64,000 nucleotides of DNA from a virus. This document shows, one piece after another, positions 49,801 to 63,133 of this stretch (positions are counted from its first letter, which is position 1; each line of letters begins with the position of its first letter). The notes below the pieces were generated by a model. That model was not told where the DNA came from and ran no database searches. It was given only the letters and a program-made list of their open reading frames with translations. The stretch lies in the IMG/VR virus record IMGVR_UViG_3300050821_006280, positions 32,001 to 96,000 of that record; one strand, given 5' to 3'. A program made the translations under genes and the position numbers.

Positions 49801-52800
49801 TGGCGCTTCGGGTGGTTTTGGATCTGGTGCTGGTGGTGCTGTCTCACTGGTGAGTGGAGCTGGAGGCACGAACACCTCTGGTCCTGGCGGGGCCGGTGGT
49901 GCCGTCAACATTACTGGTGGTGCGCCAGCAGCTGGTGACGCTTCGAGTGCTGCTGGTGCAACTGGGACGATCACCATTCAGAGCGCTAGTGGTGGAACCA
50001 ACAACGGTGGCGGTGGCTCTGCTGGTGGTGCAATCAATATCCTTTCAGGGAACGGTTCTGCGGCAAACGGAGCAAGTGTTGCTCAAGCCGCCGGCACAAT
50101 CCAAATCTTGCCAGGTGTCGGCGGTGCAGGTTCTGCGAGTGTCGGCGGAGGTACTGGCGGCAATGGTCTGCTTAAAGGCGGCGCTGGTGGTGTGGCTTCA
50201 AGTGGTGGTGTCGGCGGAACAGGTGGTCAAGCAAACGTCCAAGCTGGCGCAGGTGGTGCCGCTGGAACTAGTAATGGTGGTGTTGGTGGTCAGGTAAGTA
50301 TCAATTCTGGTGCGGGTGGCGCTGCATCAGCAAGTGGTGGTGTTGGTGGTGCGGGGGGAATCGTACTTATCCAATCGGGTGCTGGCGGCGCCGGAGTTGC
50401 TGGCTCCAACATCGCCGGTGGACTCGGTGGAAACCTAACCGTTGTTGGTGGTACTGGCGCTGCTGTTGCTGGAAGCGCTGCTGCTAAGAATGGTGGCTCA
50501 TTCCAAGCACAGGGTGGAACTGGCGGCGCCGGTAACACAGGAAGCGCCGCAGCTGGAACAGGTGGTCCCGCTACACTTCTTGGCGGTGCGGGCGGCGTAT
50601 CAAGTGCGACCAGTGCCGGAGGTTCAGGAGGAGGCACATTCGTCACTGGTGGCCCTGGCGCGAATGCGACTGCGTCTGGCGGTGGGGCAGGTAATGGTGG
50701 TGGTGTAGCCATAGTAGGTGGCGGATCCGGTGCAGGAAACGCCACCGGCAACGTCGGCGGCGGGGCAGGCGGTGTCGTTACGATCAACGGCGGAGCCAGT
50801 GCTGCTGCGGCTGGTAGCGCTAATGCGATAACTGGATCCACTGTATCTTTGACGGGCGGTACCGGTGGAGCTGCTGGTGCTGGCACGGGCACTGGTGCAC
50901 CTGGTGGTGGAACAACCGTTGCTTCAGGCGCGGGTGGCGCAGGCAGCGCGACGGCCACTGGTGGTGCGGGTGGTGAGCTTCTTCTCAATTCGGCAGCAGG
51001 AGGTACTAACAGTGGATCAGGAGGCGGTGCAGCTGGGCAAGTAACAATCAGTGCGTCAAACGGTACAGCCGCTAGCAGTGCCTCTGCTGCGACAGCCGGT
51101 GGTGCTATCGTCTTCAATTCCAGCCTGCACGCGGCACTACAGGGAACGGGCGGGGCCGGAGGGACCACTACTGGCGGCGGAGCTGGTGGTGCTGTCACCG
51201 TCAATACTGGTGTCGGTGGCGTAGCAGGATCGACCTCTGGTAACGCGGGAGCTGGTGGCGCCTTCAGTGTCGTCTCGGGCAATGGCGGCGCCGCTGCGGC
51301 TGGAACAGGAACGAGCGGAGCTGGCGGTATCATCTCTCTCAATGCCGGCAACGCAGGCGCTGCTTCTTCAACTGGCGCTGGTGGTCTTGGTGGATCTATC
51401 ACGATCCAGTCTGGTGCTGGTGCTGCGGCAAGTGGGACCAGCAACGGCAGTGCCGCGGGTGGAATCTCCATCCAAGCGAATAACAGCGGCGCTGCGGCAT
51501 CTGGTGGAGGTACCGCTGGTGCTGGTCCCACACTGACTGTTCAGTCCGGCAATGGCGGTGCCGGCGCTGGTGCTGTTGGCGGCGGTAACGGCGGCGTCGT
51601 TGCAATCACTGGCGGCAACGGCGGTGCTGGTGGCACTACCGTTGCTGGCGCTCCTGGTGGTGCAGTTCAATCAATCGGCGGTATCGGTGGAACCGCGGGA
51701 ACCACGTCGGGTACTGGCGGTCTTGGTGGCACAGGTCTAGTCAGAGGTGGTGTTGGCGGGGCGGCTGCTGCTGGCAGCGGGGCGGCAGGCAATGGCGGTC
51801 CTGCGAACATTCAAGGCGGAGCCGGCGGAGCTTCCTCGACAACAGGAGCTGGAGGCAATGGCGGCGCTGCAACGCTCACTGGCGGTGCTGGCGCAGCGGG
51901 TACATCAGGAAGCAACATTTCTGGAGGTATCGGCGGAGACATCACTCTTACGACCGGTGCAGGTGCTGCGGCAGCCGGTACTGCCGTCGGTACCTCTTCT
52001 GGAAACGTAAACGTCAGCATCGGAACAGCAGGAGCTGCTGGCGCAAGTGCTGGTGGCGGAGCTGCCGGTACGATCACTCTGACAGCTGGCACTGGTGCCG
52101 CGGCTGGCAGTGGATCATCTAACGCAACAGCTGGTGGTGTTGCTCAAATGTTTGGTGGTTCGGGCGGGGCTGCATCAACAGGAACTGGTGTAGGTGCTAT
52201 TGGAGGTACAGCTTCACTTATAGGCGGCGCTGGTGGCGCTGCATCAACAGGAACTGGAGCGGCTGGCACCGGCGGCCAAGCAAGAGTAACCGGCGGTGCT
52301 GGTGGTGCATCAACTTCAACTGGTTCTGGTGGTTCTGGTGGTTCTGTCTTAATAAGCGGCGGCGCTGGCGCAGCAGGTAGTGCTGGAACTAATATTTCTG
52401 GCGGTGTAGGCGGTGGCGTAACTATTCAAACAGGAGCTGGAGCTGCCGCAGCTGGTACTGCTGTAGGTACAGCGCCTGGATCTGTTACGATTGCAATTGG
52501 AACTGCCGGTGCTTCAGGTGCCAGTGCTGCTGGTGGTGCAGCCGGAACGGTCTCGATCACCGCTGGGACTGGTGCAGCAGCTGGGACAGGATCAAGCAAC
52601 GCCACTGCGGGCGGTACACTAACAGAGGCAGCCGGCGCAGGTGGAGCAGCGAACGCGACAGGAACTGGTACGGCAGCAGCAGGTGGTGCCTGGTCTGCGA
52701 GTGGTGGAGCTGGAGGCGCAGGAGCTGCTGGAAATACTGCTGGCGCAACAGGTGGCGCTGCATCTGTCATTGGCGGGGCTGGTGGCGCTGGGTCTGGAGC

Positions 52801-53329
52801 TGGCAATCCAGGTGGCGGCGGTCAAGTAAACATTACTGGCGGCGCTGCCGGGACTGGCGGCAGTGGCAATGCGAGCGGTGCCAATGTTGTGATCCGTGGT
52901 GGTCTCAAGGCTGGGACTGGTGCCAATGGCACCGTGACCATCGGTGACACGAATACTGCTGCCGTGAATATTGGTGCCACTGGCATCACGGCCACGATTC
53001 TCGGTGCTCTAAAAGTCAATCAGGGCTTTGGCGGAAATCTTCGCACTGCTGCCTCGACGGTCTCTATCGCCAACACCGATGGCTTTGTCGGAGTAACAGG
53101 AAGCGGGGCTCGCACCGTCAATTTGCCAGCCGCGAACACCGTCATTGTTGGCTTTGAACTTATTATCCAGGAAGTCGGGAATAGCTCTGGTACAATTACG
53201 ATCAATCCATCCGGGGCTGATAATATCAATGGTGCAAATGCGGCCATCACCATTGCGGCTGCGTTCGGGAGAAAGACGTTGGTCAGCGACGGTGCTTCCA
53301 ACTGGTATGTGAATACTGGAGTTGCATGA
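43895..53329 (+). CDS. Giant (3144 aa) Gly/Ala/Thr-rich fibre-like protein
   Basis: N-terminal IYVRPTGNDTTGDG..PFRT-type beta-helix head; ~2000 aa of GGxGG-xVxIx-GG repeats; fibre-type C-terminus VNLPAA...LVSDGASNW. Confidence 0.8.
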   Translation: MNGKIPIQGTLTADGTFPIANGAIQVPSQAGSRQVIYVRPTGNDTTGDGKTPGTAFRTVQFALDTIPVLQRSVSYVVDITGINDANQAIKVPPYASDKQISFNFSPPSPMQLYEGYVTLLAQPTVAATLNTGTTTISSDPITGMSIVTDTSQSWTVDQWKNSLVAGGSLFEGGIVEHNTATQLFIAGSVFSTPVHLLTPGATLTGASNVPTISITNVHAPFVISGISVQNANANTGAIQANSCDFVVLDACITNELIIGLNGACDSILIFGSFILGASGTSLTDMIITSGTIDIQRSYIRNSTPSFTCQSVNFTFCGLENVRFADATTSSPPFVDIFGLHMVGQGLLVMGQCSIADIKVDNATNGGSPHQNPNGSGIIVFGGGVLDIAGDGGNVGGSGNQGYGLEIQAGGSAFFQSGHVPTTGTLTITGTLGDWAVGRRAGTWTTLAANHPVWTVFDPSTRSSMAPNAGAEITPLFESYATSGRPAATTVAIGVVIRDTTKNTFSFSDGTGWNDLAVSPAGGYLPLAGGTMTGAIDSASNLQLGTTTATNISIGNSSSSTTLSGVIASDLSFVKETARNLGIATSTTIGAAGPTLSINGATSAAASAGAAAGQAGLLALVGGVGGTSSSTQAAGSGGDISIIAGAAGLNALGGGAAARGGNLVLDSGAGGTVNGSITIGATNALSIGVGRSGSTTTFSGAITFPAGSIAIAALTADTIVIAAGTGLSGGGSGTLGGSAPALSVVYGTATNTATQGNDSRLPPAPSQLGNLIYDTGSAYATVARGAANTVLLGQGAASPSFGAVPNAALQNSSITVSGSTGLSVTGSPVSLGGTLTLTNSGVTSNVAGAGIAVSGATGAVTISIPSGAVTTGMLANGAYVQLSPGSQQTGSSNISSTSEADGGFLGPSLTALSGSNLTMSSAGAQTTTVQGGAAGGILDLFSPTGTINIGTGTEATINVGNAAAKLSILGTNTQGAALRIGTYDADGTGTSMASVQPTEVGSSQWVEYFRGFANSLTSRLDQVYAMGWNINSNGYNLNSGDTALQDIWEAYYEPGQVGASQMERHLQFVNLAGTAFRPFSFLMRRDIDFITSLSQVSSATWSDLFGNTLLSVVGQGLAATNAAPGQSGGAALLNGGPGGAGSATQLGGNGGTVTITGGPAGANSGAGTNAPGYILIVPGAGTGAVGSNSLGVNAGQVQIRGIAGGAGTATAPGGQGSGVFVNGGNAGTNNGGGSSLGGQIQLQTGPGAAANGSSGGTQGGALGLTGGAGGAGSATGSASVGAYLTFTGGVGGASGGFSAGGQGGAVISKGGAGGLASGSQSGGRGGEVDLIAGTGGAAAIGAGAGGTGGPAFAEGGVGGAGTASGAAGSGGAITVLGGSAGANGGAGGANGGNATFDAGAGSGAGIGGVVQIANANASSFTIGGTNVTASSTVSTGSTSTLTIQGGVSGGILDLRAPLGTVNVGDISATTLNLGNGTTTVSQNGATYTGTLTAPSTVGTVGGAWAETAATGGAGSSVTAGGTGGTWTATSGAGGAGGTSGNGGNAGNATVTGGTGGAAGTVSGTGGAGGQVSLLSGVGGAASTGTGAGGAGGLVQLIANTGGASSATGNGGAGGGVTILSGSGANATANGGTGGGAGSITLTAGTAGTGNATGNVSGGNAGNINFNASAAANAAGSANATIAGSVFATAGAGGNAAASGGAATGGGSFTGTAGAGGTGAVSVNAGVGGVASVIGGVGGNSGSSASSPGTGGNANVTGGNGGSANTGGGAVGGTGGTINVTAGIGGLGDAANNTAAGVGGPANVKSGAGGAAGTGTGAAGAGGLLTVQGGIGGASSATGAGGAGGGVVVQGGTGANATASGGAGGAAGSVTITAGNPGNGNATGNVAGGVGGNLNLKSSPGANAAGAANATAPGALSATAGAGGNASTTSGTASIGGTFSATGGAGGAGSTALIGAAGGTASVTAGAGGASGASGGFGSGAGGAVSLVSGAGGTNTSGPGGAGGAVNITGGAPAAGDASSAAGATGTITIQSASGGTNNGGGGSAGGAINILSGNGSAANGASVAQAAGTIQILPGVGGAGSASVGGGTGGNGLLKGGAGGVASSGGVGGTGGQANVQAGAGGAAGTSNGGVGGQVSINSGAGGAASASGGVGGAGGIVLIQSGAGGAGVAGSNIAGGLGGNLTVVGGTGAAVAGSAAAKNGGSFQAQGGTGGAGNTGSAAAGTGGPATLLGGAGGVSSATSAGGSGGGTFVTGGPGANATASGGGAGNGGGVAIVGGGSGAGNATGNVGGGAGGVVTINGGASAAAAGSANAITGSTVSLTGGTGGAAGAGTGTGAPGGGTTVASGAGGAGSATATGGAGGELLLNSAAGGTNSGSGGGAAGQVTISASNGTAASSASAATAGGAIVFNSSLHAALQGTGGAGGTTTGGGAGGAVTVNTGVGGVAGSTSGNAGAGGAFSVVSGNGGAAAAGTGTSGAGGIISLNAGNAGAASSTGAGGLGGSITIQSGAGAAASGTSNGSAAGGISIQANNSGAAASGGGTAGAGPTLTVQSGNGGAGAGAVGGGNGGVVAITGGNGGAGGTTVAGAPGGAVQSIGGIGGTAGTTSGTGGLGGTGLVRGGVGGAAAAGSGAAGNGGPANIQGGAGGASSTTGAGGNGGAATLTGGAGAAGTSGSNISGGIGGDITLTTGAGAAAAGTAVGTSSGNVNVSIGTAGAAGASAGGGAAGTITLTAGTGAAAGSGSSNATAGGVAQMFGGSGGAASTGTGVGAIGGTASLIGGAGGAASTGTGAAGTGGQARVTGGAGGASTSTGSGGSGGSVLISGGAGAAGSAGTNISGGVGGGVTIQTGAGAAAAGTAVGTAPGSVTIAIGTAGASGASAAGGAAGTVSITAGTGAAAGTGSSNATAGGTLTEAAGAGGAANATGTGTAAAGGAWSASGGAGGAGAAGNTAGATGGAASVIGGAGGAGSGAGNPGGGGQVNITGGAAGTGGSGNASGANVVIRGGLKAGTGANGTVTIGDTNTAAVNIGATGITATILGALKVNQGFGGNLRTAASTVSIANTDGFVGVTGSGARTVNLPAANTVIVGFELIIQEVGNSSGTITINPSGADNINGANAAITIAAAFGRKTLVSDGASNWYVNTGVA

Positions 53330-55905: not shown

Positions 55906-56022
55906 TCTCTTTCGAGATTTCTGATCGTTTCCTTGTAAATTAAACATACGCGGTGCTAGCATGCCGTCGTGTCCACCCGTCGAAAACGTCGACGACCAGA
56001 TTACTGGCAAAGGAGAGGAAAG

Positions 56023-56433
56023 ATGAAGTACGTGATGATTCCAAGTCCGGTCAAGCTCGTAGAGCCAAGGACTGGAAAACCCATCAAGCAGCAGAACGAA
56101 GCCGGCGTGCTCGAAGATATTCCACCAGTGACAATGCCTGGTTGGAACAACGATTTCATCATTTCCAACCAGATGATCGGAAAGGGCGGTGACGGCATTC
56201 GTCGTGTGATCCGCCTGGAGAAAGCCTTCAAGGAAGAGAATCTGAAGGTAGCCAACGGCGTCAAGTATGCCGCGGTTGAATCTGACGATCATAAGATGGT
56301 GATGAACATCGTCAACGAGCTGACATGGCAGAATATGCTCGTTGGCAAGCAGTACTTCGTGTTCATGGAGGCCTGGGAGAAGGCGCTCGATGAGCTTCCA
56401 AAGGAAGAAGCCAAGCCAGCTGCCCAGGCCTGA
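56023..56433 (+). CDS. Hypothetical protein
   Basis: Strong AGGAGAGG RBS; 136 aa. Confidence 0.7.
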   Translation: MKYVMIPSPVKLVEPRTGKPIKQQNEAGVLEDIPPVTMPGWNNDFIISNQMIGKGGDGIRRVIRLEKAFKEENLKVANGVKYAAVESDDHKMVMNIVNELTWQNMLVGKQYFVFMEAWEKALDELPKEEAKPAAQA

Positions 56434-56476
56434 AGAAACGCCCATATATAATGGGCCGAGAGCACCTCCCGAAGTT

Positions 56477-56522
56477 TTGTCAAGAACCAACCTTGACAAA
56501 CACCCCCAGCCGACCGTAGACT
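56477..56522 (+). promoter_or_regulatory. tRNA-array promoter TTGACA-N18-TAGACT, with the -35 box inside a 9-bp inverted repeat
   Basis: TTTGTCAAG-N7-CTTGACAAA; -10 box ends ~6 nt before the first tRNA. Confidence 0.65.
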
Positions 56523-56528
56523 CTCTTT

Positions 56529-56602
56529 TGCGGACAAGAGAAACGGCAACTCACTTGGCTCATAACCAAGAGAATCAGGTTCAATTCCTGGGTCCGCAAC
56601 CA
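56529..56602 (+). tRNA. tRNA with CAT anticodon (Met; Ile2 not excluded)
   Basis: TGCGGAC/GTCCGCA acceptor, CTTGG-CTCATAA-CCAAG, encoded CCA. Confidence 0.85.
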
Positions 56603-56625
56603 AGGTAGTTTACAAGAGGAGTCTC

Positions 56626-56862
56626 GCTAGAGAGCTGAACATCATGTTGACCCTGAATTTACATAGGACCATAGGCGAAGCTGCCCTAGCCTCCGGTATC
56701 CAAACCGGACGGTCATGGTCCATCGTGGGTTCGGGATCGCTCTTTAGCTCGGATTGCGTCATGGGCCTGGAGCGCGGTCATAAGTATATCCAGACCCCGG
56801 CGACGACCACAAATCCCGGAGGCCCTTTCAGATAAACCTGCACCAAGGGAACTGAAAGGGCC
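56626..56862 (+). ncRNA. Unassigned structured RNA
   Basis: Nested stems GCTAGAGAGC/GCTCTTTAGC, CCCTGAATTTAC/GTGGGTTCGGG and GGACCAT/ATGGTCC, then GGCCCTTTCAG/CTGAAAGGGCC. Confidence 0.5.
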
Positions 56863-56890
56863 GCCAGGAGAGATCCTAGGCGGCTTTTTT
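56860..56890 (+). terminator. Intrinsic terminator inside the tRNA array
   Basis: GCCGCC-AGGA-GAGA-TCCT-A-GGCGGC followed by T6. Confidence 0.7.
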
Positions 56891-56919
56891 ATTTTCCGGG
56901 GTCAAAAAGGATCAAATAT

Positions 56920-57004
56920 GCGGGCGTTGAGCAGCGTGGTGGGCTCACCTGACTGTAAATCAGGCGCTTCGGCCGTGAAGGTTCGATTCCTTCCGTCCGC
57001 ACCA
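56920..57004 (+). tRNA. trnY: tRNA-Tyr(GTA)
   Basis: Cloverleaf with long variable arm and CCA. Confidence 0.9.
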
Positions 57005-57065
57005 GGAGAAGTAAATGGATCTGATCTACGAGCGAAAACGCGGGCGAACGGAAGGGCATACCTAC

Positions 57066-57138
57066 GCCTCCGTAGCCAAGCGGATAAGGCAGCGAACTTT
57101 TAATTCGTTGATCGCAGGTTCAAATCCTGCCGGGGGCA
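57066..57138 (+). tRNA. trnK: tRNA-Lys(TTT)
   Basis: GCGAA-CTTTTAA-TTCGT; T-loop TTCAAAT. Confidence 0.88.
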
Positions 57139-57155
57139 CCTGAAGGAGAGAAGTC

Positions 57156-57386
57156 ATGAAGGTCTACATGATGCACGCAGGCGGCATGAAGGAAGTCGAG
57201 ATGGAGTTCAAGAGCGCAGAGGGCGCTCTGGATCGTCTCGGTGTCCTCGGGCGTGGCGTGGAGACCATCAAGGATGACACGGGCACGGTGTTCCGTGTCG
57301 ACCTTGGACGTGGCTTCTCGACAAAAAAGGGAGAAGTGATCCGTAAGACCTCGCTGGCCGCTTCTTTGTATCGGCAGGCGGGGTAG
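57156..57386 (+). CDS. Hypothetical protein
   Basis: AAGGAG RBS; 76 aa. Confidence 0.65.
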   Translation: MKVYMMHAGGMKEVEMEFKSAEGALDRLGVLGRGVETIKDDTGTVFRVDLGRGFSTKKGEVIRKTSLAASLYRQAG

Positions 57387-57428
57387 ATAGAAATAACCGA
57401 TCCCCCTCCTAACGGCCGGGGATCGTAT

Positions 57429-57500
57429 TCGGGGATAGGTCAATGGTAGACCAGCAGCCTCTGGAGCTGCGTGTTGGGGGTTCGAGTCCCTCTCCCCGAA
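57429..57500 (+). tRNA. trnQ: tRNA-Gln(CTG)
   Basis: GCAGC-CTCTGGA-GCTGC. Confidence 0.88.
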
Positions 57501-57501
57501 C

Positions 57502-57596
57502 TAGGGTTGTCGTGACTGTGCTGTACGCGACGTGAGTGTCTGATCTTCGGATCCAGGCCAGGGCGAGCGACAGGACGGCGAAACGTCGACAACCTA
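57502..57596 (+). ncRNA. Unassigned structured RNA
   Basis: Closing stem GGGTTGTCG/CGACAACCT, a UUCG hairpin and a GACG-GCGAAA-CGTC hairpin. Confidence 0.45.
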
Positions 57597-57646
57597 TTGA
57601 TAATTTAATAGTTGACGACGCGGGGGCGCACCATCGCCCCCAATAT

Positions 57647-57718
57647 GTCCCCTTAGCTTAATTGGTAGAGCGCTGCGCTGAAGACGCGGAGACCTCGGTT
57701 CGATCCCGAGGGGGGACA
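57647..57718 (+). tRNA. trnF: tRNA-Phe(GAA)
   Basis: CTGCG-CTGAAGA-CGCGG. Confidence 0.88.
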
Positions 57719-57724
57719 CAATAT

Positions 57725-57856
57725 GCACCTGATGGTCAACGGTAGACCACCATCCTGAACAGATGGCAAATCAAATACCAGGATTGCACCTCGGCTCCTT
57801 ACGGAGCCAACTAGTGATCCTCACAAGCAGAGAAGGTTCGACTCCTTCCAGGTGCG
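57725..57856 (+). ncRNA. tRNA-like RNA (anticodon GAA, C37, G73) with a conserved domain inserted in the variable arm
   Basis: Acceptor GCACCTG/CAGGTGC; D, anticodon and T arms intact; insert at 57778-57828. Confidence 0.85.
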
Positions 57857-57862
57857 CAACAT

Positions 57863-57992
57863 GGCGCGTATGGGGATGGTCCCCAGCTCTCTTCCAAAGA
57901 GTGCAATATCCAGGATGGCACCTCGGCTTGAATAACAAGCCAACCAGCGATCCTCACAAGCTTTGTCGGTTCGATTCCGGCACGCGCCTCCA
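57863..57992 (+). ncRNA. tRNA-Gly(TCC)-like RNA (U73, CCA) with the same inserted domain
   Basis: Acceptor GGCGCGT/ACGCGCC; insert at 57910-57961. Confidence 0.85.
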
Positions 57993-58004
57993 CAGTAGCA
58001 ACAT

Positions 58005-58140
58005 GGGTGAACACAGAGGGAGGGTCCCTCGCCAGCCTTGATAGCTGGAGCCAAAAGCTCCCAGAATCACACCTCGATCTCAGCAATGGGATCAACTCGT
58101 GGTTCTTACACGCCATCCGGTTCGACTCCGGGTTCATCCA
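58005..58140 (+). ncRNA. tRNA-like RNA (anticodon TGA, U37) with a covarying copy of the inserted domain
   Basis: Acceptor GGGTGAA(C)/(G)TTCATCC; insert at 58061-58113. Confidence 0.82.
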
Positions 58141-58153
58141 CTGATTTGTTTTT

Positions 58154-58225
58154 GGGTGCGTAGCACAATGGAAGTGCAGTTGATTCTTAATCAATTGGTT
58201 CCGAGTTCGAGTCTCGGCGCACCCA
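58154..58225 (+). tRNA. trnK: tRNA-Lys(CTT)
   Basis: GTTGA-TTCTTAA-TCAAT. Confidence 0.88.
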
Positions 58226-58235
58226 CTATTGAACG

Positions 58236-58336
58236 GGTTCGATTCCCTCCCTGGGCACTATCCTGTGGTAAGATCAAATGGAGCGCAGATGCAGGTAATC
58301 GCCTCGACGTTCTCCAGTCTGATCTTTACCCCAGGG
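58236..58336 (+). ncRNA. Orphan T-arm fragment followed by a rod-shaped hairpin
   Basis: GGG-TTCGATT-CCC, then CCTG.GGTAA.GATCA..TGGAG pairing with CTCCA..TGATC.TTACC.CAGG. Confidence 0.4.
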
Positions 58337-58348
58337 CTTTCTTCCGAT

Positions 58349-58437
58349 GGAAGGGTTTGCACATTGGCAAGTCAGCACCGCTCGAAACGGTGTGGGCCGG
58401 GTAACTGGCTCTGGGAGTTCGACTCTCTCCCCTTCCG
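58349..58437 (+). tRNA. trnS: tRNA-Ser(CGA)
   Basis: CACCG-CTCGAAA-CGGTG, long variable arm, G73. Confidence 0.88.
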
Positions 58438-58463
58438 CTCTCAATACCAGCAAGGAGTACTGC

Positions 58464-58682
58464 ATGCGGACGTGCCCCGAGTGCGCGACATGGCGTGGCG
58501 CTACGAGCGAGATCAACGTTCATAAGCGCGGGACGTACTGTCCGACATGCGGTGCTACCAGGGCATTTGACGATCCTCTCTCAGAAGAGGATAACGAGAT
58601 CCAGCACCACACCATGAAGCGGAAGTTGCGCAAGGTGGACTCTTTGAGTGAGGGAGCGCGCAAGCGTTTGCGCCTCGCATGA
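58464..58682 (+). CDS. Small Zn-ribbon protein
   Basis: AAGGAG RBS; CPEC...CPTC. Confidence 0.6.
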   Translation: MRTCPECATWRGATSEINVHKRGTYCPTCGATRAFDDPLSEEDNEIQHHTMKRKLRKVDSLSEGARKRLRLA

Positions 58683-58813
58683 CCAGCTGGTGGATCTTGC
58701 GCAATATCGTAATCATGTGCAAGATCCACGTTCCAACGCTGTTTCGGTGGATCGGTCCGTTTTTGTTGTAACCGGATTGATCGACCTCCGTATGGATGAT
58801 ACTGTGCTCTGTA

Positions 58814-59248
58814 ATGCGAGAGCTTAGTCACCACACGAAGGATAAAGGCGATCAAGGAGTCGGGTTCGTGATCGCTTCGCTTCTTTCCCACAATATCAAG
58901 ATTGCTCTTCCGCTAAGTGAACATCTTCCGTTTGATCTGATTGCAATTTCTACTTCAGGACAAATGCGAAAGGTGTCAGTTAAGTATCGTGCGGAAAGAG
59001 ATAGCAAAATTGAGGTAAGACCAGAAAGTAATTGGTCGAACGCAAAACAGTTCTGCACTCGCAAATACGAGCCAGGCGAAGTCGATGCATATGCCATCTA
59101 CTGTCCTAATACAAAGACGTGCTATTTTGTTCGGGAGTCAGATGCACTTCATGGAATCATTCTTCGCATGGAACCGCCAGGCAACGGCCAGACAAAGGGC
59201 ATACGAATGGCGAAGGATTTCGTAGATCCAAATTCGATATTTGTATAG
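58814..59248 (+). CDS. Group I intron-associated-type PD-(D/E)XK homing endonuclease (free-standing)
   Basis: TKDKGDQG...PLSEHLPFDLI...KVSVKY...Y...VDAYAIYCP. Confidence 0.8.
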   Translation: MRELSHHTKDKGDQGVGFVIASLLSHNIKIALPLSEHLPFDLIAISTSGQMRKVSVKYRAERDSKIEVRPESNWSNAKQFCTRKYEPGEVDAYAIYCPNTKTCYFVRESDALHGIILRMEPPGNGQTKGIRMAKDFVDPNSIFV

Positions 59249-59255
59249 ATTTCAC

Positions 59256-59344
59256 GGAAGGATGGCAGAGAGGCTTAATGCGGCGGCTTGCTAAGCCGTT
59301 GTGCTGGGTAACCGGTACCGCGGGTTCAAATCCCGCTCCTTCCG
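59256..59344 (+). tRNA. trnS: tRNA-Ser(GCT)
   Basis: GCGGC-TTGCTAA-GCCGT, long variable arm. Confidence 0.9.
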
Positions 59345-59346
59345 CC

Positions 59347-59454
59347 GGTCAGTGAAAGGCCTAGTAGCTGACCAAATAAAACGCTCGCACCCAACGTGAG
59401 TTCCTCGGCATCGGCCGAAGCGTAAAAAGGAATCCCTGCGAAGGGTCTGGGTGT
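59347..59454 (+). ncRNA. Unassigned structured, possibly pseudoknotted RNA
   Basis: GGTCAGT/GCTGACC; GCACCCA/TGGGTGT enclosing TTCCT/AGGAA, TCGGC/GCCGA and CCCT-GCGA-AGGG; ACGCT/AGCGT crossing pair. Confidence 0.45.
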
Positions 59455-59457
59455 TTT

Positions 59458-59531
59458 CCGGGTGTAGCTCAGTTTGGAAGAGCATCCGCTTTGGGAGCGG
59501 AGGGTCACTGGTTCAAATCCAGTCTCCCGGA
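59458..59531 (+). tRNA. trnP: tRNA-Pro(TGG)
   Basis: TCCGC-TTTGGGA-GCGGA. Confidence 0.88.
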
Positions 59532-59550
59532 CTACTGTAGTATTCGAGCC

Positions 59551-59772
59551 ATGAGCCGGCTTCTCTCCGTCGAAATGGCACTGACCATCTTCGTCATGAG
59601 CGCCGCCGGTTGCTATGTCGCTCTCACGCTTCGTGATCTATGGCGTCAGTACAGGCGCTATCGACGATTGAAAAAAGAAGGACCTTCCCCTGGTACCCCG
59701 GTGTACTTCGTCTCGAAGCAGGATAGAGCCAAAGACGATACCCCAGTCACGAAGAAGACGATCAAACACTAA
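59551..59772 (+). CDS. Small membrane protein
   Basis: One TM helix followed by a basic tail. Confidence 0.55.
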   Translation: MSRLLSVEMALTIFVMSAAGCYVALTLRDLWRQYRRYRRLKKEGPSPGTPVYFVSKQDRAKDDTPVTKKTIKH

Positions 59773-59774
59773 AT

Positions 59775-59849
<75 letters not shown>

Positions 59850-59895
59850 GCTTGCAATTCAGGACATGTAACAGTACGCTGTTTAAGATCCAAAT

Positions 59896-59971
59896 GCGGG
59901 TGTAGCTCAATTGGTAGAGCGCTAGCCTTCCAAGCTGGATGCTGTCGGTTCGAGTCCGATCGCCCGCTCCA
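59896..59971 (+). tRNA. trnG: tRNA-Gly(TCC)
   Basis: CTAGC-CTTCCAA-GCTGG, U73, CCA. Confidence 0.92.
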
Positions 59972-60213
59972 TGAGAATCACGAGAGTAATTATCGAAGCT
60001 GAAGGCGATATTTCTGGATCAGCTTATCCGCCAACAGAAATACCGGGCTGCGGCCATGGATATCATGCCAAAGTCACGTATTCAGTCGACATGGAAACTG
60101 GCAAATGCGAAGCGGATGTTGACCTTCCAGGACTTGCAATGATTTCGAGTGACAAGTGGGAGCTTCATCTTCAAGAGGTCGCTGAACGCTGCAAGCGACT
60201 CATCAATCAGTAA
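59971..60213 (+). CDS. Hypothetical protein whose ATG overlaps the tRNA CCA end
   Basis: 80-aa ORF exactly filling the inter-tRNA gap. Confidence 0.5.
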   Translation: MRITRVIIEAEGDISGSAYPPTEIPGCGHGYHAKVTYSVDMETGKCEADVDLPGLAMISSDKWELHLQEVAERCKRLINQ

Positions 60214-60214
60214 T

Positions 60215-60287
60215 GCCCTCATAGCTCATTTGGTAGAGCACCGCTTTCGTAAAGCGGGGGTGGTCAGTTCGATCCTGACTGGGGGCT
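60215..60287 (+). tRNA. trnT: tRNA-Thr(CGT)
   Basis: CCGCT-TTCGTAA-AGCGG. Confidence 0.9.
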
Positions 60288-60291
60288 CCGT

Positions 60292-60364
60292 GCCGGTGTA
60301 GCTCAATTGGCAGAGCGCCTCCCCTGTAAGGAGGATGTTGCGGGTTCGATGCCTGTCGCCGGCT
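60292..60364 (+). tRNA. trnT: tRNA-Thr(TGT), C33 variant
   Basis: CCTCC-CCTGTAA-GGAGG. Confidence 0.85.
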
Positions 60365-60379
60365 CTAAGGAGAGAAACG

Positions 60380-60538
60380 ATGCCGTGTTGGCCATGCGCA
60401 AAAGAGATCGAAGTTGGCAGTCTATGCGCTAGCTGCGAGCGCGGCGGAGATGATGACTGCGTACGAAAGCAGTCCATTTTCATCAAAAAACGTCGAAGCA
60501 ATAAGAAGAAACCTCGGTCTCCAGTCACCGGAAAGTGA
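60380..60538 (+). CDS. Small Cys-rich basic protein
   Basis: AAGGAG RBS; CWPC...CASC. Confidence 0.5.
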   Translation: MPCWPCAKEIEVGSLCASCERGGDDDCVRKQSIFIKKRRSNKKKPRSPVTGK

Positions 60539-60544
60539 TCTTAT

Positions 60545-60566
60545 TCCAGTGTAGCTCAGTCTGGAC
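60545..60566 (+). pseudogene. Orphan 5' fragment of tRNA-Asn left by the endonuclease insertion
   Basis: TCCAGTGTAGCTCAGTCTGG versus TCCAGCGTAACTCAGT-TGG at 61004. Confidence 0.7.
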
Positions 60567-60596
60567 AATTACCCAACTGTCTCGTAGTTTTGCTGC

Positions 60597-61013
60597 ATGA
60601 AAAACGATCCAAAAGCCAAAGGGGAGCGATCGGAGGCTATGGTTCTAGCGGCACTTCTGCGAAGTGGCAAGTCCGTTCTGCGACCGTTCGGTGATAACGA
60701 GCGATACGATCTAGTCATTGACGACGGCGAAAAATTCTCCAGAGTTCAATGCAAAACAGCACGTCGGGTTGGAAACGTCCTTAAATTCGACACGTGTTCA
60801 TCGTATTCGCACCGCGGTGGGAAGAAAAAAGACTACCGCGGCCAGGTTGAGTTCTTTGGCATCTACAGTCCAGATGTCGATCGTGTATTCCTTGTTCCAG
60901 TCAGTCATGTTGGTACCACGAGCGCATCGCTTAGACTTACTCCGACTGTTAATGGCCAGCATGTCAACGTTAGGCTTGCTAGCGATTATGAATTGTCTTT
61001 CATTCCAGCGTAA
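60597..61013 (+). mobile_element. Free-standing PD-(D/E)XK homing endonuclease gene inserted into tRNA-Asn
   Basis: PKAKGERSEAMV...PFGDNERYDLVID...RVQCKT...YRGQVEFFGIY; last codons and stop form the 5' end of tRNA-Asn. Confidence 0.82.
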
Positions 61014-61076
61014 CTCAGTTGGCAGAGTGCCTCACTGTTAATGAGGAGGTCACAGGTTCGAGTCCTGTCGCTGGAG
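61004..61076 (+). tRNA. trnN: tRNA-Asn(GTT)
   Basis: CCTCA-CTGTTAA-TGAGG, G73. Confidence 0.9.
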
Positions 61077-61078
61077 CT

Positions 61079-61205
61079 GTCATTCCTGAGATCGTCACCA
61101 GACGACGCCAGGCGGACGTGGTGAAAGTCCACGTGATCTCACAGCCGCTACGGGGCCGGCAGAAGCACCATCTCCCGCCGCCGTTTGCTCGGTCTTTGGG
61201 ATGAC
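61079..61205 (+). ncRNA. Unassigned rod-like structured RNA
   Basis: GTCATTCC.GAGATCG pairing with CGGTCTT.GGGATGAC; internal ACGTGG/CCACGT hairpin. Confidence 0.5.
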
Positions 61206-61208
61206 AAT

Positions 61209-61282
61209 GAACCGCGCGCCGGACTGGGATGGCACTGGCCTGTTAAGCCAGGATAAGCAGGGTTCGATTCCCTGGCGGTTCG
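61209..61282 (+). tRNA. Second, atypical tRNA-Asn(GTT)
   Basis: GAACCGC/GCGGTTC, CTGGC-CTGTTAA-GCCAG; G8 and unusual D-arm. Confidence 0.75.
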
Positions 61283-61293
61283 CAGACTAGATT

Positions 61294-61366
61294 GCGAGAG
61301 TAGCTCAGCTGGTAGAGCGCATCCTTCCCAAGGATGATGTCGTGGGTTCAAATCCCATCTCTTGCT
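61294..61366 (+). tRNA. trnG: tRNA-Gly(CCC)
   Basis: CATCC-TTCCCAA-GGATG, U73. Confidence 0.9.
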
Positions 61367-61368
61367 CC

Positions 61369-61458
61369 GACGGCAGTTGGTGTTTGGAGCTTCCCCCGAG
61401 CGGAGACGTTCGGAGGATGACGAGCTAGCGGAAGCAGTTCGTCGCCACCTGCCGTCCA
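61369..61458 (+). ncRNA. Unassigned structured RNA ending in CCA
   Basis: GACGGCAG.TGGTG pairing with CGCCA.CTGCCGTC; GAGA and GGAA tetraloop hairpins. Confidence 0.5.
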
Positions 61459-61465
61459 TTTCCAC

Positions 61466-61541
61466 GGCGCCATCGTCTACTGGTTAGGACCCGGGCCTTT
61501 CACGTCCGAGAAGTGGGGTTCAATTCCCCCTGGCGCCACCA
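61466..61541 (+). tRNA. trnE: tRNA-Glu(TTC)
   Basis: CGGGC-CTTTCAC-GTCCG, CCA. Confidence 0.9.
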
Positions 61542-61544
61542 TCT

Positions 61545-61619
61545 GGTCCCATAGTCTAATGGTTAGGACGCCGGCCTCTCACGTCGGAATTCCGAGTTCA
61601 AATCTCGGTGGGATCACCA
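61545..61619 (+). tRNA. trnE: tRNA-Glu(CTC)
   Basis: CCGGC-CTCTCAC-GTCGG, CCA. Confidence 0.9.
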
Positions 61620-61624
61620 TGCAC

Positions 61625-61702
61625 GTCCCATTCGTCTAGCTGGCCTAGGACGCTGCCCTCTCAAGGCGGAAACGGCGAGTTCAAATCTCCCATGGGACAC
61701 CA
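61625..61702 (+). tRNA. trnE: tRNA-Glu(CTC), second copy
   Basis: CTGCC-CTCTCAA-GGCGG, CCA. Confidence 0.88.
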
Positions 61703-61753
61703 CTTCCAAATTGATCAATGGACGGGTAGATTGCTCGATCAAAGGAGATCCAA

Positions 61754-62134
61754 ATGATCAAACCTTCTACCCTGTTCATGATCTTGTTTCCCGTCCTGCT
61801 TTCTGGCTGCCCTGCCCACACCGATATCAAGGCAACGTTGAAGGATTTCGGTATCGGTGAGCTGGACTGTGGCAAGGCTGCTGTGGCGAATGAAATGCCG
61901 ACCATCACTCCCGCAGTTGGGGCTCTCCTCGGTGGCTCCTCGCCAAATGGTCAGTCGCTTCTCGATGCACTGTTTCGCCAGGCGCCAGAGCTGATTGCGT
62001 GTTCGGTGAAGAACTTGATCGCCACCGCTGAGCACCCTGTCATCGGTCAAGAGGTCAATCGCATGATGGCTGAGAAGAGTGCAGTCGTCGTGAAGAATGG
62101 AAAGGACGCACTTTCTCGTTGGGGTGCGCAATAG
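61754..62134 (+). CDS. Predicted lipoprotein
   Basis: AAGGAG RBS; lipobox LLSGC. Confidence 0.7.
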   Translation: MIKPSTLFMILFPVLLSGCPAHTDIKATLKDFGIGELDCGKAAVANEMPTITPAVGALLGGSSPNGQSLLDALFRQAPELIACSVKNLIATAEHPVIGQEVNRMMAEKSAVVVKNGKDALSRWGAQ

Positions 62135-62138
62135 GCTG

Positions 62139-62375
62139 ATGTCGAAGAAAGCTCATATACCAGTGATTGAACGGTTGTTGTCTGGCTGGACTCATCCGCA
62201 AGGCCCGGACATGGCGTTCAATGATGCCCTTGCCGAATGGCACTCTGACAAGGTGTTCACTGGTTCGATCTATGAGTATATGGGCTTGACCTGGGAAGAG
62301 TATCGTCGGTGGGCCGGTGATGCGAAGGCAGCCGCGGTCATCCTTCAAGAGAGACGGAGCCTACGGGCTCAATGA
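62139..62375 (+). CDS. Hypothetical protein
   Basis: EWH...IYEYMGLTWEEYRRW pattern. Confidence 0.6.
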   Translation: MSKKAHIPVIERLLSGWTHPQGPDMAFNDALAEWHSDKVFTGSIYEYMGLTWEEYRRWAGDAKAAAVILQERRSLRAQ

Positions 62376-62414
62376 AACCTCCCCTGGGCTCTGCGAAAGC
62401 AACCTGGGGTTTTT

Positions 62415-62487
62415 GAGACCATAGCTCAGCTGGTAGAGCGTCGCCTCGACACGGCGAAGGTCGCAGGTTCGATCCCTGTTGGTCTCA
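62415..62487 (+). tRNA. trnV: tRNA-Val(GAC), C33 variant
   Basis: TCGCC-TCGACAC-GGCGA. Confidence 0.88.
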
Positions 62488-62489
62488 CC

Positions 62490-62659
62490 GCTCCCGTTGT
62501 CTCAATAGGTAGACCCTATGGGTTCCTGAGAGGGAATGCGTGGGTCGCGCCGAAGTAAGCAGTGGCCTATTCGCGGTAAGCCACTGACGAACGGCATCCG
62601 TAAAGACAGCCATCCTTACGCATGGTGGATGCAGGTACCCAATCCTGCCGGGAGCGCCA
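62490..62659 (+). ncRNA. 170-nt tRNA-shaped RNA with a ~100-nt structured domain in the D-loop
   Basis: Acceptor GCTCCCG/CGGGAGC-G-CCA; D-stem GTCT/AGAC; 8-nt anticodon-like and T-like loops. Confidence 0.75.
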
Positions 62660-62664
62660 ATTCC

Positions 62665-62776
62665 GCTCGCGGAGCGTGTTAAACCGGGTTGATCACCGGC
62701 GAAGACCTAGATCCGCCCGCTACGGCAGGAGGCATCCTGCCAGGGATCAGACACGAAAGAACGTGCTGGCGAGCCA
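62665..62776 (+). ncRNA. Unassigned multi-hairpin RNA
   Basis: Closing GCTCGC/GCGAGC-CA; hairpins CCGG/CCGG, GGCAGGA-GGCA-TCCTGCC and CACG/CGTG. Confidence 0.5.
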
Positions 62777-62779
62777 AAT

Positions 62780-62855
<76 letters not shown>

Positions 62856-62904
62856 GGAACATAAAAGTCGATTCTGGTATTGTTGATCGCATAGGAGGTC
62901 AACG

Positions 62905-63129
62905 ATGACGACCCGAACGACCAAAGAAATGGCCGAGGAAGTCCTTGAATCGTTGAAGTCTGCTCACGAGGACAAGCCTTGGTTCAAAAAGGCAGTACTC
63001 GAAACGAGTGACTTGGGCTATGGCGTTGACCTTTGGGTTGATCGCGAGAAGTTCAGGGCTCGGACCGACAAGTTCATGCCGCCCGGTGCCATCAATCATG
63101 TCGTTGTATGCGTAATGGTGCAGGGCTAA
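62905..63129 (+). CDS. Hypothetical protein
   Basis: AGGAGG RBS; 74 aa. Confidence 0.65.
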   Translation: MTTRTTKEMAEEVLESLKSAHEDKPWFKKAVLETSDLGYGVDLWVDREKFRARTDKFMPPGAINHVVVCVMVQG

Positions 63130-63133
63130 TCGC

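What the first reader, a model, noticed from the sequence alone, without database searches (positions are those of the whole stretch)
57725..58140. Three tandem tRNA-shaped genes carry the same covarying ~52-nt RNA domain in the variable arm (natural tRNA-scaffolded RNA family)
Seen in sequence: three adjacent 130-136 nt RNAs each keep acceptor, D, anticodon and T arms. Their bodies are unrelated and their anticodons differ (GAA, TCC, TGA). Each has the insert CC-[8-bp P1]-ACCTC-[P2 hairpin]-AAC-NN-[P1']-YACAMGC between the anticodon and T arms. P1 is AGGATTGC/GTGATCCT, AGGATGGC/GCGATCCT or AGAATCAC/GTGGTTCT. P2 is GGCTCC-TTAC-GGAGCC, GGCTTG-AATAA-CAAGCC or GATCTCA-GCAA-TGGGATC. Stems change with compensation while ACCTC and AAC stay invariant and the YACAMGC tail is near-invariant, which indicates selection on a functional RNA domain. 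D-stems are extended to 5 bp and two copies have a pyrimidine at position 37. Canonical tRNA-Phe(GAA) and tRNA-Gly(TCC) exist nearby, so normal decoding is probably not the role. Established knowledge: the insert is far too short for a group I/II intron and is not in the anticodon loop, and I know no tRNA class with this insert. Inference: the tRNA body supplies processing and stability for a cargo motif such as a protein decoy or aptamer. Two untested resemblances: CACCUC is anti-Shine-Dalgarno-like, and GC-ACCUC-G facing AAC-NN-GY recalls the base of 23S rRNA helix 89 at the peptidyl transferase centre.
Basis: partly seen in the sequence, partly recalled or inferred. Interest (0 to 1): 0.93.

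Follow-up and report, generated by a model that had tools for sequence, protein, structure and literature searches.

The report
Phage tRNA mimics with protein handle
Three tRNA-shaped RNAs in a soil phage carry a conserved two-helix "handle" that elsewhere, in phage contigs, metagenome bins and cultured myxobacteria, lies beside a gene for a Ro60-like ring protein, so they are most likely an undescribed kind of Y RNA, not working tRNAs or introns.

Summary
Window 57725-58140 holds three tandem 130-136 nt RNAs with acceptor, D, anticodon and T arms and one shared ~52-nt module (CC, P1, internal loop, P2 hairpin, P1', single-stranded tail) between the anticodon and T arms. ARAGORN and Rfam 15 do not call them.

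They belong to a large family. A covariance model found 142 copies in 0.96 Mb flanking one conserved phage gene and none in 0.90 Mb of unrelated viral DNA. It found 92 more beside that gene in MAGs and cultured Myxococcota. P1 and P2 covary strongly. Family-wide, only CUC and the ACA-G tail are invariant.

The linked gene encodes a ~625-aa protein with a helical N-domain plus a vWA domain. Its predicted fold is closest to Ro60/Rsr, although Pfam TROVE does not match it. The module also occurs in circularly permuted, YrlA-like RNAs.

My best reading (0.6) is that the module is the docking handle of a Ro60-like protein and that these are Y-RNA-like tRNA mimics.

The main caveat is that the held 109 kb of this phage (68% complete) has no such gene. 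Binding is inferred, not shown.

The scan has noted the same kind of RNA-protein pairing on other DNA before. I found no paper or Rfam family describing it.

The parts
57725..57856 (+). tRNA-shaped RNA 1. Acceptor 57725-57731 / 57849-57855, D arm 57733-57749, anticodon arm 57750-57766 (GAA at 57757-57759, C37), T arm 57832-57848, discriminator G 57856. Starts 5 nt after tRNA-Phe.
   Evidence: MFE cloverleaf, z -4.75; 7/7 acceptor
57778..57828 (+). Handle module of RNA 1: CC, P1 (8 bp), 5-nt loop ending CUC, P2 hairpin, 5-nt loop, P1', tail CACAAGC.
   Evidence: 76.1 bits to family model R2
57863..57992 (+). tRNA-shaped RNA 2. Acceptor 57863-57869 / 57982-57988, D arm 57871-57885, anticodon arm 57886-57904 (UCC at 57893-57895, A37), T arm 57965-57981, discriminator U 57989, then an encoded CCA.
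   Evidence: (z -4.65)
57910..57961 (+). Handle module of RNA 2.
   Evidence: 72.8 bits
58005..58140 (+). tRNA-shaped RNA 3. Acceptor 58005-58011 / 58133-58139, D hairpin, anticodon arm with UGA at 58039-58041 (U37), extra small hairpin 58049-58060, T arm about 58116-58132, discriminator A 58140. tRNA-Lys starts 14 nt later.
   Evidence: (z -3.56)
58061..58113 (+). Handle module of RNA 3 (tail UACACGC).
   Evidence: 69.7 bits
56529..63425 (+). Surrounding same-strand tRNA array (23 ARAGORN tRNAs in the window, 20 more plus a tmRNA downstream in the record). The three RNAs sit in it at tRNA-like spacing.

Best explanation
The three RNAs are members of a widespread, undescribed family of tRNA-mimic non-coding RNAs. 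They share one portable 'handle': helix P1, an internal loop with invariant CUC, helix P2, and a single-stranded yACAmGc tail. The handle is most likely the docking site of a divergent Ro60-like protein (helical ring domain plus vWA), and the tRNA-shaped body is the effector part. This is the layout of bacterial Y RNAs of the YrlA type. In this phage the handle is grafted at the variable-arm position of an open-ended cloverleaf, so RNase P, a 3' end-trimming enzyme and the CCA-adding enzyme would release it from the tRNA operon like a tRNA. Shown here: the fold, the family, the covariation, the gene linkage and the Ro60-like predicted fold. Inferred: that this protein binds the handle, and that the particle works on tRNAs or on tRNA-directed enzymes in the phage-host contest.
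For: 1. Family and structure.
- Model R1, built from the three window copies only, found 4 tandem copies in a 192-kb phage and more in 372-497 kb phages.
- On 81 copies, 92.8% of cells pair, against at most 57.7% when partners are slid. The covariation score is 0.775 against at most 0.144, and 18 of 19 pairs change on both sides.
- The 17 highest mutual-information column pairs are all predicted base pairs.

2. Linkage to one gene.
- All 4 contigs first found by RNA pattern encode a 55%-identical ~625-aa protein on the same strand.
- Starting from the protein, 41 of 49 viral loci hold 142 R2 hits. Of these, 140 are on the gene's strand, the median distance is 3.9 kb, and 105 lie within 5 kb.
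- There were 0 hits in 0.90 Mb of unrelated viral loci.
- Seven further RNA-first contigs: 5 have a strong match to the gene and a sixth (G011) a weak partial one (35 bits over residues 306-499). The seventh is estimated 14% complete.
- The linkage repeats in GTDB genomes: 92 hits in 59 of 80 loci, all on the gene's strand.
- In Corallococcus coralloides the RNA lies about 100 nt upstream of the gene (read). Three myxobacterial loci scanned (L392, L385, L382) hold no tRNA gene in about 21.7 kb. So the link is not a by-product of tRNA arrays.

3. The protein.
- It has a C-terminal vWA domain (Pfam) with conserved MIDAS residues D-x-S-x-S.
- For the full-length model, Foldseek's top 9 hits are Ro60/TROVE structures aligned over 527-575 columns.
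- For the N-domain alone against 48,161 chains, ranks 1-3 are phage phiLo Ro60 (Z 9.2, 250 aa), D. radiodurans Rsr (Z 8.4, 269 aa) and Xenopus Ro60 (Z 7.8, 294 aa). The next hit has Z 6.6 over 112 aa.

4. Y-RNA likeness.
- Permuted copies have a closed acceptor hairpin, and P2 forms the terminal stem.
- One permuted copy gives a partial Rfam YrlA match (28 bits).
- YrlA genes lie within 4 kb of rsr on the same strand, and M. smegmatis YrlA is cut by RNase P and receives CCA (PMC4201824).

5. Not ordinary decoders.
- By a crude MFE parse, only about 25 of 99 bodies have a 7-nt anticodon loop with U33 and a purine at 37.
- U8-A9 is present in only 25 of 109.
- Even so, 109 of 119 keep a 7-bp acceptor stem (6/7 or better), and the base after the discriminator is C in nearly all.
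- Canonical tRNAs with the same three anticodons exist in this phage.
Against: - The held 109.5 kb of this phage (CheckV 68% complete) has no homolog of the Ro60-like protein and no TROVE, DUF2828 or VWA_2 domain. In most other loci the gene lies within 10 kb of the RNAs.
- No binding data exist.
- The Ro60 assignment rests on predicted structure with modest scores (TM 0.31-0.47, Z 7.8-9.2). Pfam TROVE and PDB sequence profiles do not match. Foldseek on the N-domain alone gave only weak helical-repeat hits.
- The handle lacks the GNCGAAN0-1G / GGUCCGA Ro60-contact motif, and the window RNAs do not match Rfam YrlA.
- Four other conserved genes travel with the Ro60-like gene, and any of them could be the real binder.
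- The three window copies have good 7-nt anticodon loops with U33, so some decoding role is not excluded for them.
Confidence: 0.6

Rival explanations
1. The handle is functional and selected, but its partner is not the Ro60-like protein. It could be another product of the conserved cassette (the ~320-aa unknown protein, the JAB peptidase, the ~95-aa protein or the ThiF/E1-like enzyme) or a host factor. Alternatively, the handle could be a processing or stability signal.
For: The Ro60-like gene is followed on the same strand by the same four genes in most loci: 46, 46, 26 and 41 of 49 phage loci, and also in the Myxococcota chromosomes checked. Linkage therefore cannot say which one binds. The same tail motif also abuts the 5' end of tRNA-like units in a 497-kb phage. 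That position would also suit a processing signal.
Against: Only the Ro60-like protein has a fold with a known habit of binding small structured RNAs encoded next to it. In Corallococcus the RNA sits directly in front of that gene. Its vWA MIDAS residues are conserved. None of this excludes a second binder.
Confidence: 0.17
2. They are working tRNAs (Phe, Gly, Ser) with a giant variable arm. They are charged and used in translation, and the arm protects or marks them, for example against host anticodon nucleases.
For: The window copies have perfect 7-bp acceptor stems, 7-nt anticodon loops with U33, G18-G19-type D loops and standard T loops. Copy 2 encodes CCA. The base after the discriminator is C in nearly all members, and CCA is encoded in 29 of 109. 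Rfam's tRNA model spans two copies in the 192-kb phage at 47 and 36 bits.
Against: Two of the three have a pyrimidine at position 37, and none has U8-A9. Family-wide, about three quarters lack a canonical anticodon loop, with 4-9 nt loops or no U33. Permuted members have a closed acceptor and cannot be charged without cleavage. Canonical tRNAs with the same anticodons are encoded nearby.
Confidence: 0.12
3. The insert is an intron, a mobile mini-element or a self-cleaving ribozyme that is removed to leave ordinary 76-nt tRNAs.
For: The position is internal to a tRNA-shaped gene. The array carries homing endonuclease genes (PD-(D/E)XK and HNH).
Against: There is no Rfam intron or ribozyme match at E<=1. 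The module is far too small for a group I or II intron. The bodies are unrelated, and the stems covary, instead of showing near-identical copies as recent mobility would give. The same module forms the terminal stem of permuted RNAs and clamps leader and trailer in others. It also sits alone in front of a chromosomal gene in myxobacteria. An intron reading does not fit these placements.
Confidence: 0.04
4. The module mimics ribosomal RNA (the anti-Shine-Dalgarno end of 16S, or the base of 23S helix 89) and acts as a decoy for a ribosome-directed factor.
For: The three window copies read CACCUC.
Against: Across 81-116 family members the two bases before CUC are not conserved (A/C/U in roughly equal shares, then C 55%). 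So the anti-SD string is a local feature of this phage. No rRNA family matched.
Confidence: 0.03

Closest known systems
Bacterial and mycobacteriophage Y RNAs of the YrlA type with Ro60/Rsr (Rfam RF02553; Chen et al. 2014, PMC4201824)
   Same: Small RNAs built from a protein-binding stem plus a tRNA-like domain with D and T arms. They are encoded within a few kb of a ring-plus-vWA protein gene on the same strand. The permuted members here have the YrlA layout (T arm, closed acceptor hairpin, D arm, ends in a long stem). M. smegmatis YrlA is cut by RNase P and receives CCA, which gives an open tRNA-like end like the window RNAs.
   Different: The window RNAs are not permuted. The handle sits at the variable-arm position, whereas the Ro60-binding stem of YrlA replaces the anticodon arm. 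A full anticodon arm is kept. The conserved bases are CUC and yACAmGc, not GNCGAAN0-1G. The Rfam YrlA model does not reach its threshold. The partner protein is not recognised by Pfam TROVE. No partner gene is found in the held part of this phage.
Ro60 of Thermus phage phiLo (PDB 9L5Y; PMC12135203) and D. radiodurans Rsr (2NVO)
   Same: They are the best structural matches to the N-domain of the linked protein (Z 9.2 and 8.4). Both are followed by a vWA domain in the same order.
   Different: Sequence identity is 12-16% and no sequence-profile match was found. The protein here has an extra beta-sheet insert at about residues 36-99. It is embedded in a cassette with JAB and ThiF/E1-like genes.
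Class II tRNAs (Ser, Leu, Tyr) with long variable arms
   Same: An extra helix emerges between the anticodon and T arms of a cloverleaf.
   Different: Class II arms are simple 3-7 bp hairpins of 10-20 nt without conserved loop bases. Here there are two stacked helices, an internal loop and a conserved tail, 51-53 nt in all. Copy 3 carries a small class-II-like hairpin in addition to the module.
Class I RNAs of dictyostelid amoebae (Kjellin et al. 2021, PMC7919456)
   Same: A short covarying closing stem is followed by a conserved ~11-nt single-stranded motif next to the 5' strand of the stem, with variable interiors. Earlier notes of this scan say the motif resembles the phage handle tail.
   Different: The paper's text does not print the motif, so I could not compare sequences. 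This is an untested lead, not a finding. Class I RNAs are eukaryotic, are reported only in Dictyostelia, and have no tRNA-like parts.

Membership tests
YrlA Y RNA (RF02553) | Match to the Rfam covariance model at or above its gathering score (69 bits) | tested here: not met
   No YrlA match on the three RNAs at E<=1. The best family match is a partial one of 28.1 bits, model positions 30-81, on a permuted relative.
YrlA Y RNA (RF02553) | GNCGAAN0-1G motif near the 5' end (proposed Ro60 contact) | tested here: not met
   Reading: none of the three RNAs contains CGAA. The family's conserved single-stranded motif is yACAmGc.
YrlA Y RNA (RF02553) | tRNA-like domain with D and T arms able to form the elbow | tested here: met
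   Folds. The T loop UUCGAnU is invariant or nearly so in 81 copies. GG is present in the D loops.
YrlA Y RNA (RF02553) | Encoded within about 4 kb of a Ro60 (TROVE) gene on the same strand | tested here: not met
   For this window there is no TROVE, DUF2828, VWA_2 or Ro60-like homolog in the 109.5-kb record. For the family the feature is met with a Ro60-like, non-TROVE-scoring gene: 140 of 142 hits on its strand, median distance 3.9 kb.
Canonical tRNA (RF00005) | Detected by tRNA models; U8, 7-nt anticodon loop with U33 and purine 37, variable region of 4-21 nt | tested here: not met
   ARAGORN and Rfam miss all three. Positions 8-9 are AU, AU, or a 4-nt linker. Position 37 is C, A, U. The region between the anticodon and T stems is 60-70 nt.
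Ro60 / TROVE protein (for the linked protein, not encoded in the window) | Helical-repeat ring domain followed by a vWA domain with MIDAS | tested here: met
   Predicted models have pLDDT 79.5 and 82.3. Ro60 structures are the top full-length Foldseek hits and ranks 1-3 for the N-domain alone. vWA is found by Pfam, and D-x-S-x-S is invariant. Whether the helices close into a ring was not checked.
Ro60 / TROVE protein (for the linked protein) | Match to Pfam TROVE (PF05731) | tested here: not met
   No hit at E<=1 in 34 members or in two phage records. A PDB sequence profile finds only vWA proteins.
Group I/II or bulge-helix-bulge intron; known self-cleaving ribozymes | Match to an Rfam intron or ribozyme model; removal leaves a normal tRNA | tested here: not met
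   No such match at E<=1 over 56000-64000. Splicing itself cannot be tested with these tools.

The most novel reading that the evidence does not exclude
The handle-tagged tRNA mimics are the RNA arm of a compound system. In it, a Ro60-like ring is coupled to a ubiquitin-like activating and cleaving pair (ThiF/E1-like and JAB) that is conserved from huge phages to Myxococcus-group chromosomes. The RNAs would display tRNA look-alikes to sense, trap or direct modification of tRNA-targeting enzymes. This phage, which seems to lack the protein cassette, may deploy handle RNAs alone to hijack or jam a host-encoded version.
Probability: 0.15. Interest if true: 0.9.

Novelty: new variant of a known kind. 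Interest (0 to 1): 0.72.

Why it matters
Y RNAs and Ro60 are known from animals and a limited set of bacteria, and their function is still debated. This family extends the idea of a 'Ro60-type ring plus tRNA-mimic RNA'. It now includes a protein clade that domain databases miss and an RNA handle that no RNA catalogue holds. The family is present in at least a hundred loci of huge uncultured phages.

It is also present in cultured, genetically tractable Myxococcus and Corallococcus species, so binding and function can be tested directly. The handle is a portable module. It is found inserted in the variable arm, used as the terminal stem of permuted tRNAs, or clamped around whole tRNAs. This makes it a natural example of tRNA scaffolding.

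For annotation, such RNAs are missed by tRNA finders and leave unexplained gaps in phage tRNA arrays.

Tried and rejected
- Rfam at E<=1 on the array and on three related loci gave no family for the module.
- A strict DNA pattern copied from the three copies found nothing in IMG/VR. Looser patterns were needed, and they return mostly chance hits that the covariance model removes.
- blastn against GenBank phages found only tRNA matches. tblastn with the linked protein found a single uncultured virus, Rctr197k.
- My first guess, that the 603-aa ORF upstream in the window was the partner, was wrong. It is a lectin/pectate-lyase-type fibre protein.
- TROVE, DUF2828, VWA_2 and the Ro60-like profile were all absent from the held record.
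- No RNA holder was listed among public runs. There were only soil DNA runs, so nothing can be said on expression.
- Foldseek with the N-domain alone gave only weak helical-repeat hits. VIA on the full model was swamped by vWA chains.
- The protein atlas gave nothing usable for the ~320-aa cassette protein.
- Two ad hoc regex scans for permuted handles failed on the known positives and were dropped. The absence of permuted copies in this phage is therefore not established.
- No extra covariation linking the tail to the internal loop was seen.
- The Class I RNA paper does not print its motif, so that resemblance stayed untested.
- Complex prediction was not used, because it does not take RNA.

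Full report
**What is in the window**

Window 57725-58140 (+) lies inside a long same-strand tRNA array. ARAGORN finds 23 tRNAs in the window and 20 more plus a tmRNA further along the record. The stretch itself is left blank by ARAGORN and by Rfam 15 even at E<=1.

Read and folded, it holds three RNAs of 130-136 nt. Each has:
- a 7-bp acceptor stem;
- a D hairpin with a 5-6 bp stem and GG in the loop;
- a 5-bp anticodon stem with a 7-nt loop (GAA, UCC, UGA);
- a standard T arm.

Between the anticodon and T arms sits a 51-53 nt module: CC, an 8-bp P1, a 5-nt strand ending CUC, a P2 hairpin, a 5-nt strand, the P1 return strand, and a single-stranded tail CACAAGC or UACACGC.

The minimum-energy folds reproduce exactly this layout, with z-scores of -3.6 to -4.8. 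The motif occurs three times against 0.01 expected. The gaps to the flanking tRNAs and between the copies are 5-14 nt, as between tRNA genes.

**The RNAs belong to a large family**

The record is an IMG/VR virus contig of 109,558 bp from soil, estimated 68% complete. It has no close relative among GenBank phages.

A covariance model built only from the three copies (R1) was run on loci fetched by loose DNA patterns. It found four tandem copies in a complete 192-kb phage. It found further copies in contigs of 372, 416 and 497 kb.

An alignment of 81 copies gives 92.8% paired cells, against at most 57.7% when partners are slid by 1-3 columns. The covariation score is 0.775 against at most 0.144, and 18 of 19 pairs show changes on both sides. 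In a later set of 116 copies, the 17 strongest mutual-information column pairs are all predicted base pairs. These alignments are fitted to the model, which favours pairing, but the margin is large.

CUC and the tail bases A-C-A-(A/C)-G are invariant or nearly so, and CC before P1 is common. The bases before CUC and the 'AAC' are only partly conserved. The anti-Shine-Dalgarno look of CACCUC is therefore local to this phage.

**The family is linked to one gene**

In the 192-kb phage the RNAs end about 200 nt before a 628-aa ORF with a C-terminal vWA domain. All four contigs found by RNA pattern encode a 55%-identical homolog on the same strand as the RNAs. The protein family has at least 1,722 database members, mostly on large contigs.

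I then fetched 55 viral loci by the protein and searched 49 non-redundant ones with the family model R2. The results were:
- 142 hits at E<=1e-3 in 41 loci;
- 140 hits on the gene's strand;
- 1-8 copies per locus;
- a median distance of 3.9 kb, with 105 hits within 5 kb.

The same model gave no hit in 0.90 Mb of unrelated viral loci. Those loci had been selected for containing a T-arm-like string.

A third, RNA-first pattern scan found seven new contigs with strong module hits. Five have a strong match to the gene, and a sixth a weak partial one (35 bits). The seventh is a fragment estimated 14% complete.

**The linkage repeats in bacterial genome records**

In GTDB genomes, 59 of 80 loci around homologs of the gene hold 92 hits, all on the gene's strand. 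Many of these records are MAGs labelled Myxococcota that probably contain phage contigs. Homologs of 38-41% identity also lie in chromosomes of cultured Myxococcus, Corallococcus, Pyxidicoccus and Citreicoccus.

In Corallococcus coralloides a permuted handle RNA sits about 100 nt upstream of the gene. I parsed it by eye from the sequence. The three myxobacterial loci I scanned contain no tRNA gene in about 21.7 kb. So the association is with the gene, not with tRNA arrays.

**What the linked protein is**

Pfam sees only the vWA domain. TROVE does not match, and neither does a PDB sequence profile.

The AlphaFold model of the full protein (pLDDT 79.5) has Ro60/TROVE structures as its nine best Foldseek hits, aligned over 527-575 columns.

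I also folded the N-terminal 418 residues alone (pLDDT 82.3) and compared the model with 48,161 representative chains without Foldseek. Ranks 1-3 were:
- Thermus phage phiLo Ro60 (Z 9.2, 250 aligned);
- D. radiodurans Rsr (Z 8.4, 269 aligned);
- Xenopus Ro60 (Z 7.8, 294 aligned).

The next hit has Z 6.6 over 112 residues. These Z values are modest for a helical repeat. Still, all three Ro60 representatives rank first, and a vWA domain with invariant MIDAS residues follows in the same order. I therefore take the protein to be a divergent Ro60-like protein, with odds of about 80%.

**Likeness to Y RNAs, and the topologies of the handle**

Chen et al. 2014 (PMC4201824) showed three things. Bacterial and mycobacteriophage Ro60 genes are accompanied within 4 kb, on the same strand, by YrlA RNAs. 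These RNAs combine a Ro60-binding stem with a tRNA-like domain. M. smegmatis YrlA is cut by RNase P and receives CCA.

The family here shows the same logic in several topologies:
- Type 1 (the window, and most copies): the handle sits at the variable-arm position of an open cloverleaf.
- Type 2: a circular permutation with a closed acceptor hairpin, in which P2 forms the terminal stem. Examples are in the 497-kb phage, in GenBank virus Rctr197k, where it is unannotated, and in Corallococcus.
- Type 3: the handle closes around a whole tRNA-like unit as leader and trailer.

One type-2 copy gives a partial Rfam YrlA match of 28 bits.

The bodies look tRNA-derived, but most are not decoders. Of 119 full-length copies, 109 have a 7-bp acceptor stem (6/7 or better; 96 perfect). 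The base after the discriminator is C in nearly all, and CCA is encoded in 29. Yet only about 25 of 99 have a 7-nt anticodon loop with U33 and a purine at 37, by a crude MFE parse.

**Membership**

These RNAs work like YrlA, but they are not members of RF02553. The model does not match them. The GNCGAAN0-1G motif is absent. The handle emerges from a different arm. The partner is outside Pfam TROVE.

**The main weakness for this window**

The 109.5 kb held for this phage has no homolog of the Ro60-like protein and no TROVE, DUF2828 or VWA_2 domain. It also has none of the cassette genes. This is unlike most loci, where the gene lies within 10 kb.

The record does share a tail sheath (49% identity) and tube with one phage that carries the Ro60-like gene. 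Three outcomes remain possible: the gene lies in the missing third, the gene has been lost, or the phage uses a host protein.

**Context of the cassette**

The Ro60-like gene is followed on the same strand by:
- a ~320-aa protein of no known family;
- a JAB-domain protein;
- a ~95-aa protein;
- a ThiF/E1-like protein.

This holds in most phage loci and in the Myxococcota chromosomes checked. The cassette leaves open which protein binds the handle, and it suggests a link to ubiquitin-like chemistry. I did not follow this further.

**Earlier notes and the literature**

After I had reached the reading above, I found that notes from this scan report the same kind of pairing on many other genomes: handle-bearing tRNA mimics beside a Ro60-like gene, some with an E1/JAB cassette. 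Later checks reported that part of some of those readings fell. These are AI notes, not evidence. They agree with what I tested here and add leads (a small ubiquitin-like gene, the Class I RNA resemblance) that I did not test.

In the paper library I found no description of this RNA family or of this protein clade as Ro60-like. A review of jumbo phages mentions only canonical TROVE proteins in a small subset (PMC7824862).

**Verdict**

My best explanation is that these are Y-RNA-like tRNA mimics whose module is the docking handle of a Ro60-like protein (0.6). I classify this as a new variant of a known kind. It is of high interest because the family is widespread, is missed by current catalogues, and can be tested in cultured myxobacteria.

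Noticed in passing
L173 9968-21606; L188 9869-15026; L392 10001-20211 (Corallococcus coralloides chromosome): A conserved same-strand cassette: the Ro60-like/vWA gene, a ~320-aa protein with no Pfam match, a Prok-JAB protein, a ~95-aa protein and a ThiF/E1-like protein. It is shared by huge phages (46, 46, 26 and 41 of 49 loci) and by the cultured Myxococcota chromosomes checked.
   Followed up: partly
L061 7775-7900 and 8075-8200 (497-kb IMG/VR phage): The same handle (P2 terminal stem, CUC, tail) closes around whole tRNA-like units that ARAGORN calls tRNA-Ala(CGC) and tRNA-Met(CAU). The tail runs into the acceptor 5' strand.
   Followed up: partly
L061 8566-8658: A bacterial-type small SRP RNA (Rfam RF00169, 57.7 bits, above threshold) is encoded in the tRNA region of a 497-kb phage contig.
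   Followed up: no
L228 10238-10635 (same record, 106238-106635; outside the window): A phage-encoded tmRNA with tag peptide ANDNMYPAASLRAAA lies at the end of the tRNA array.
   Followed up: no
window 58796-59248 and 60597-61013; L228 4460-12282: PD-(D/E)XK (PF11645) and several HNH endonuclease genes are interspersed in the tRNA array. Homologs sit in the tRNA regions of the phages that carry the Ro60-like gene.
   Followed up: no
window 58227-58348: The spacer between tRNA-Lys(CUU) and tRNA-Ser(CGA) starts with an orphan T-arm-like fragment (GGTTCGATTCC at about 58236-58246) that has no matching 5' half. It may be a tRNA remnant.
   Followed up: no
window 43895-53329: A single 3,144-aa ORF is followed by a 603-aa protein with Laminin_G_3 and pectate-lyase-like domains. 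These are probably tail or fibre proteins.
   Followed up: no
L230 19503-19695 (GenBank KX853510.1, Virus Rctr197k): An unannotated permuted handle RNA lies 8.5 kb downstream of the Ro60-like gene. That gene is annotated only as a misc_feature 'similar to conserved hypothetical protein', directly after a 36-tRNA array.
   Followed up: yes
protein P0084: One homolog of the Ro60-like protein is 1,043 aa long and carries intein/homing-endonuclease domains (PF14528, PF14890).
   Followed up: no
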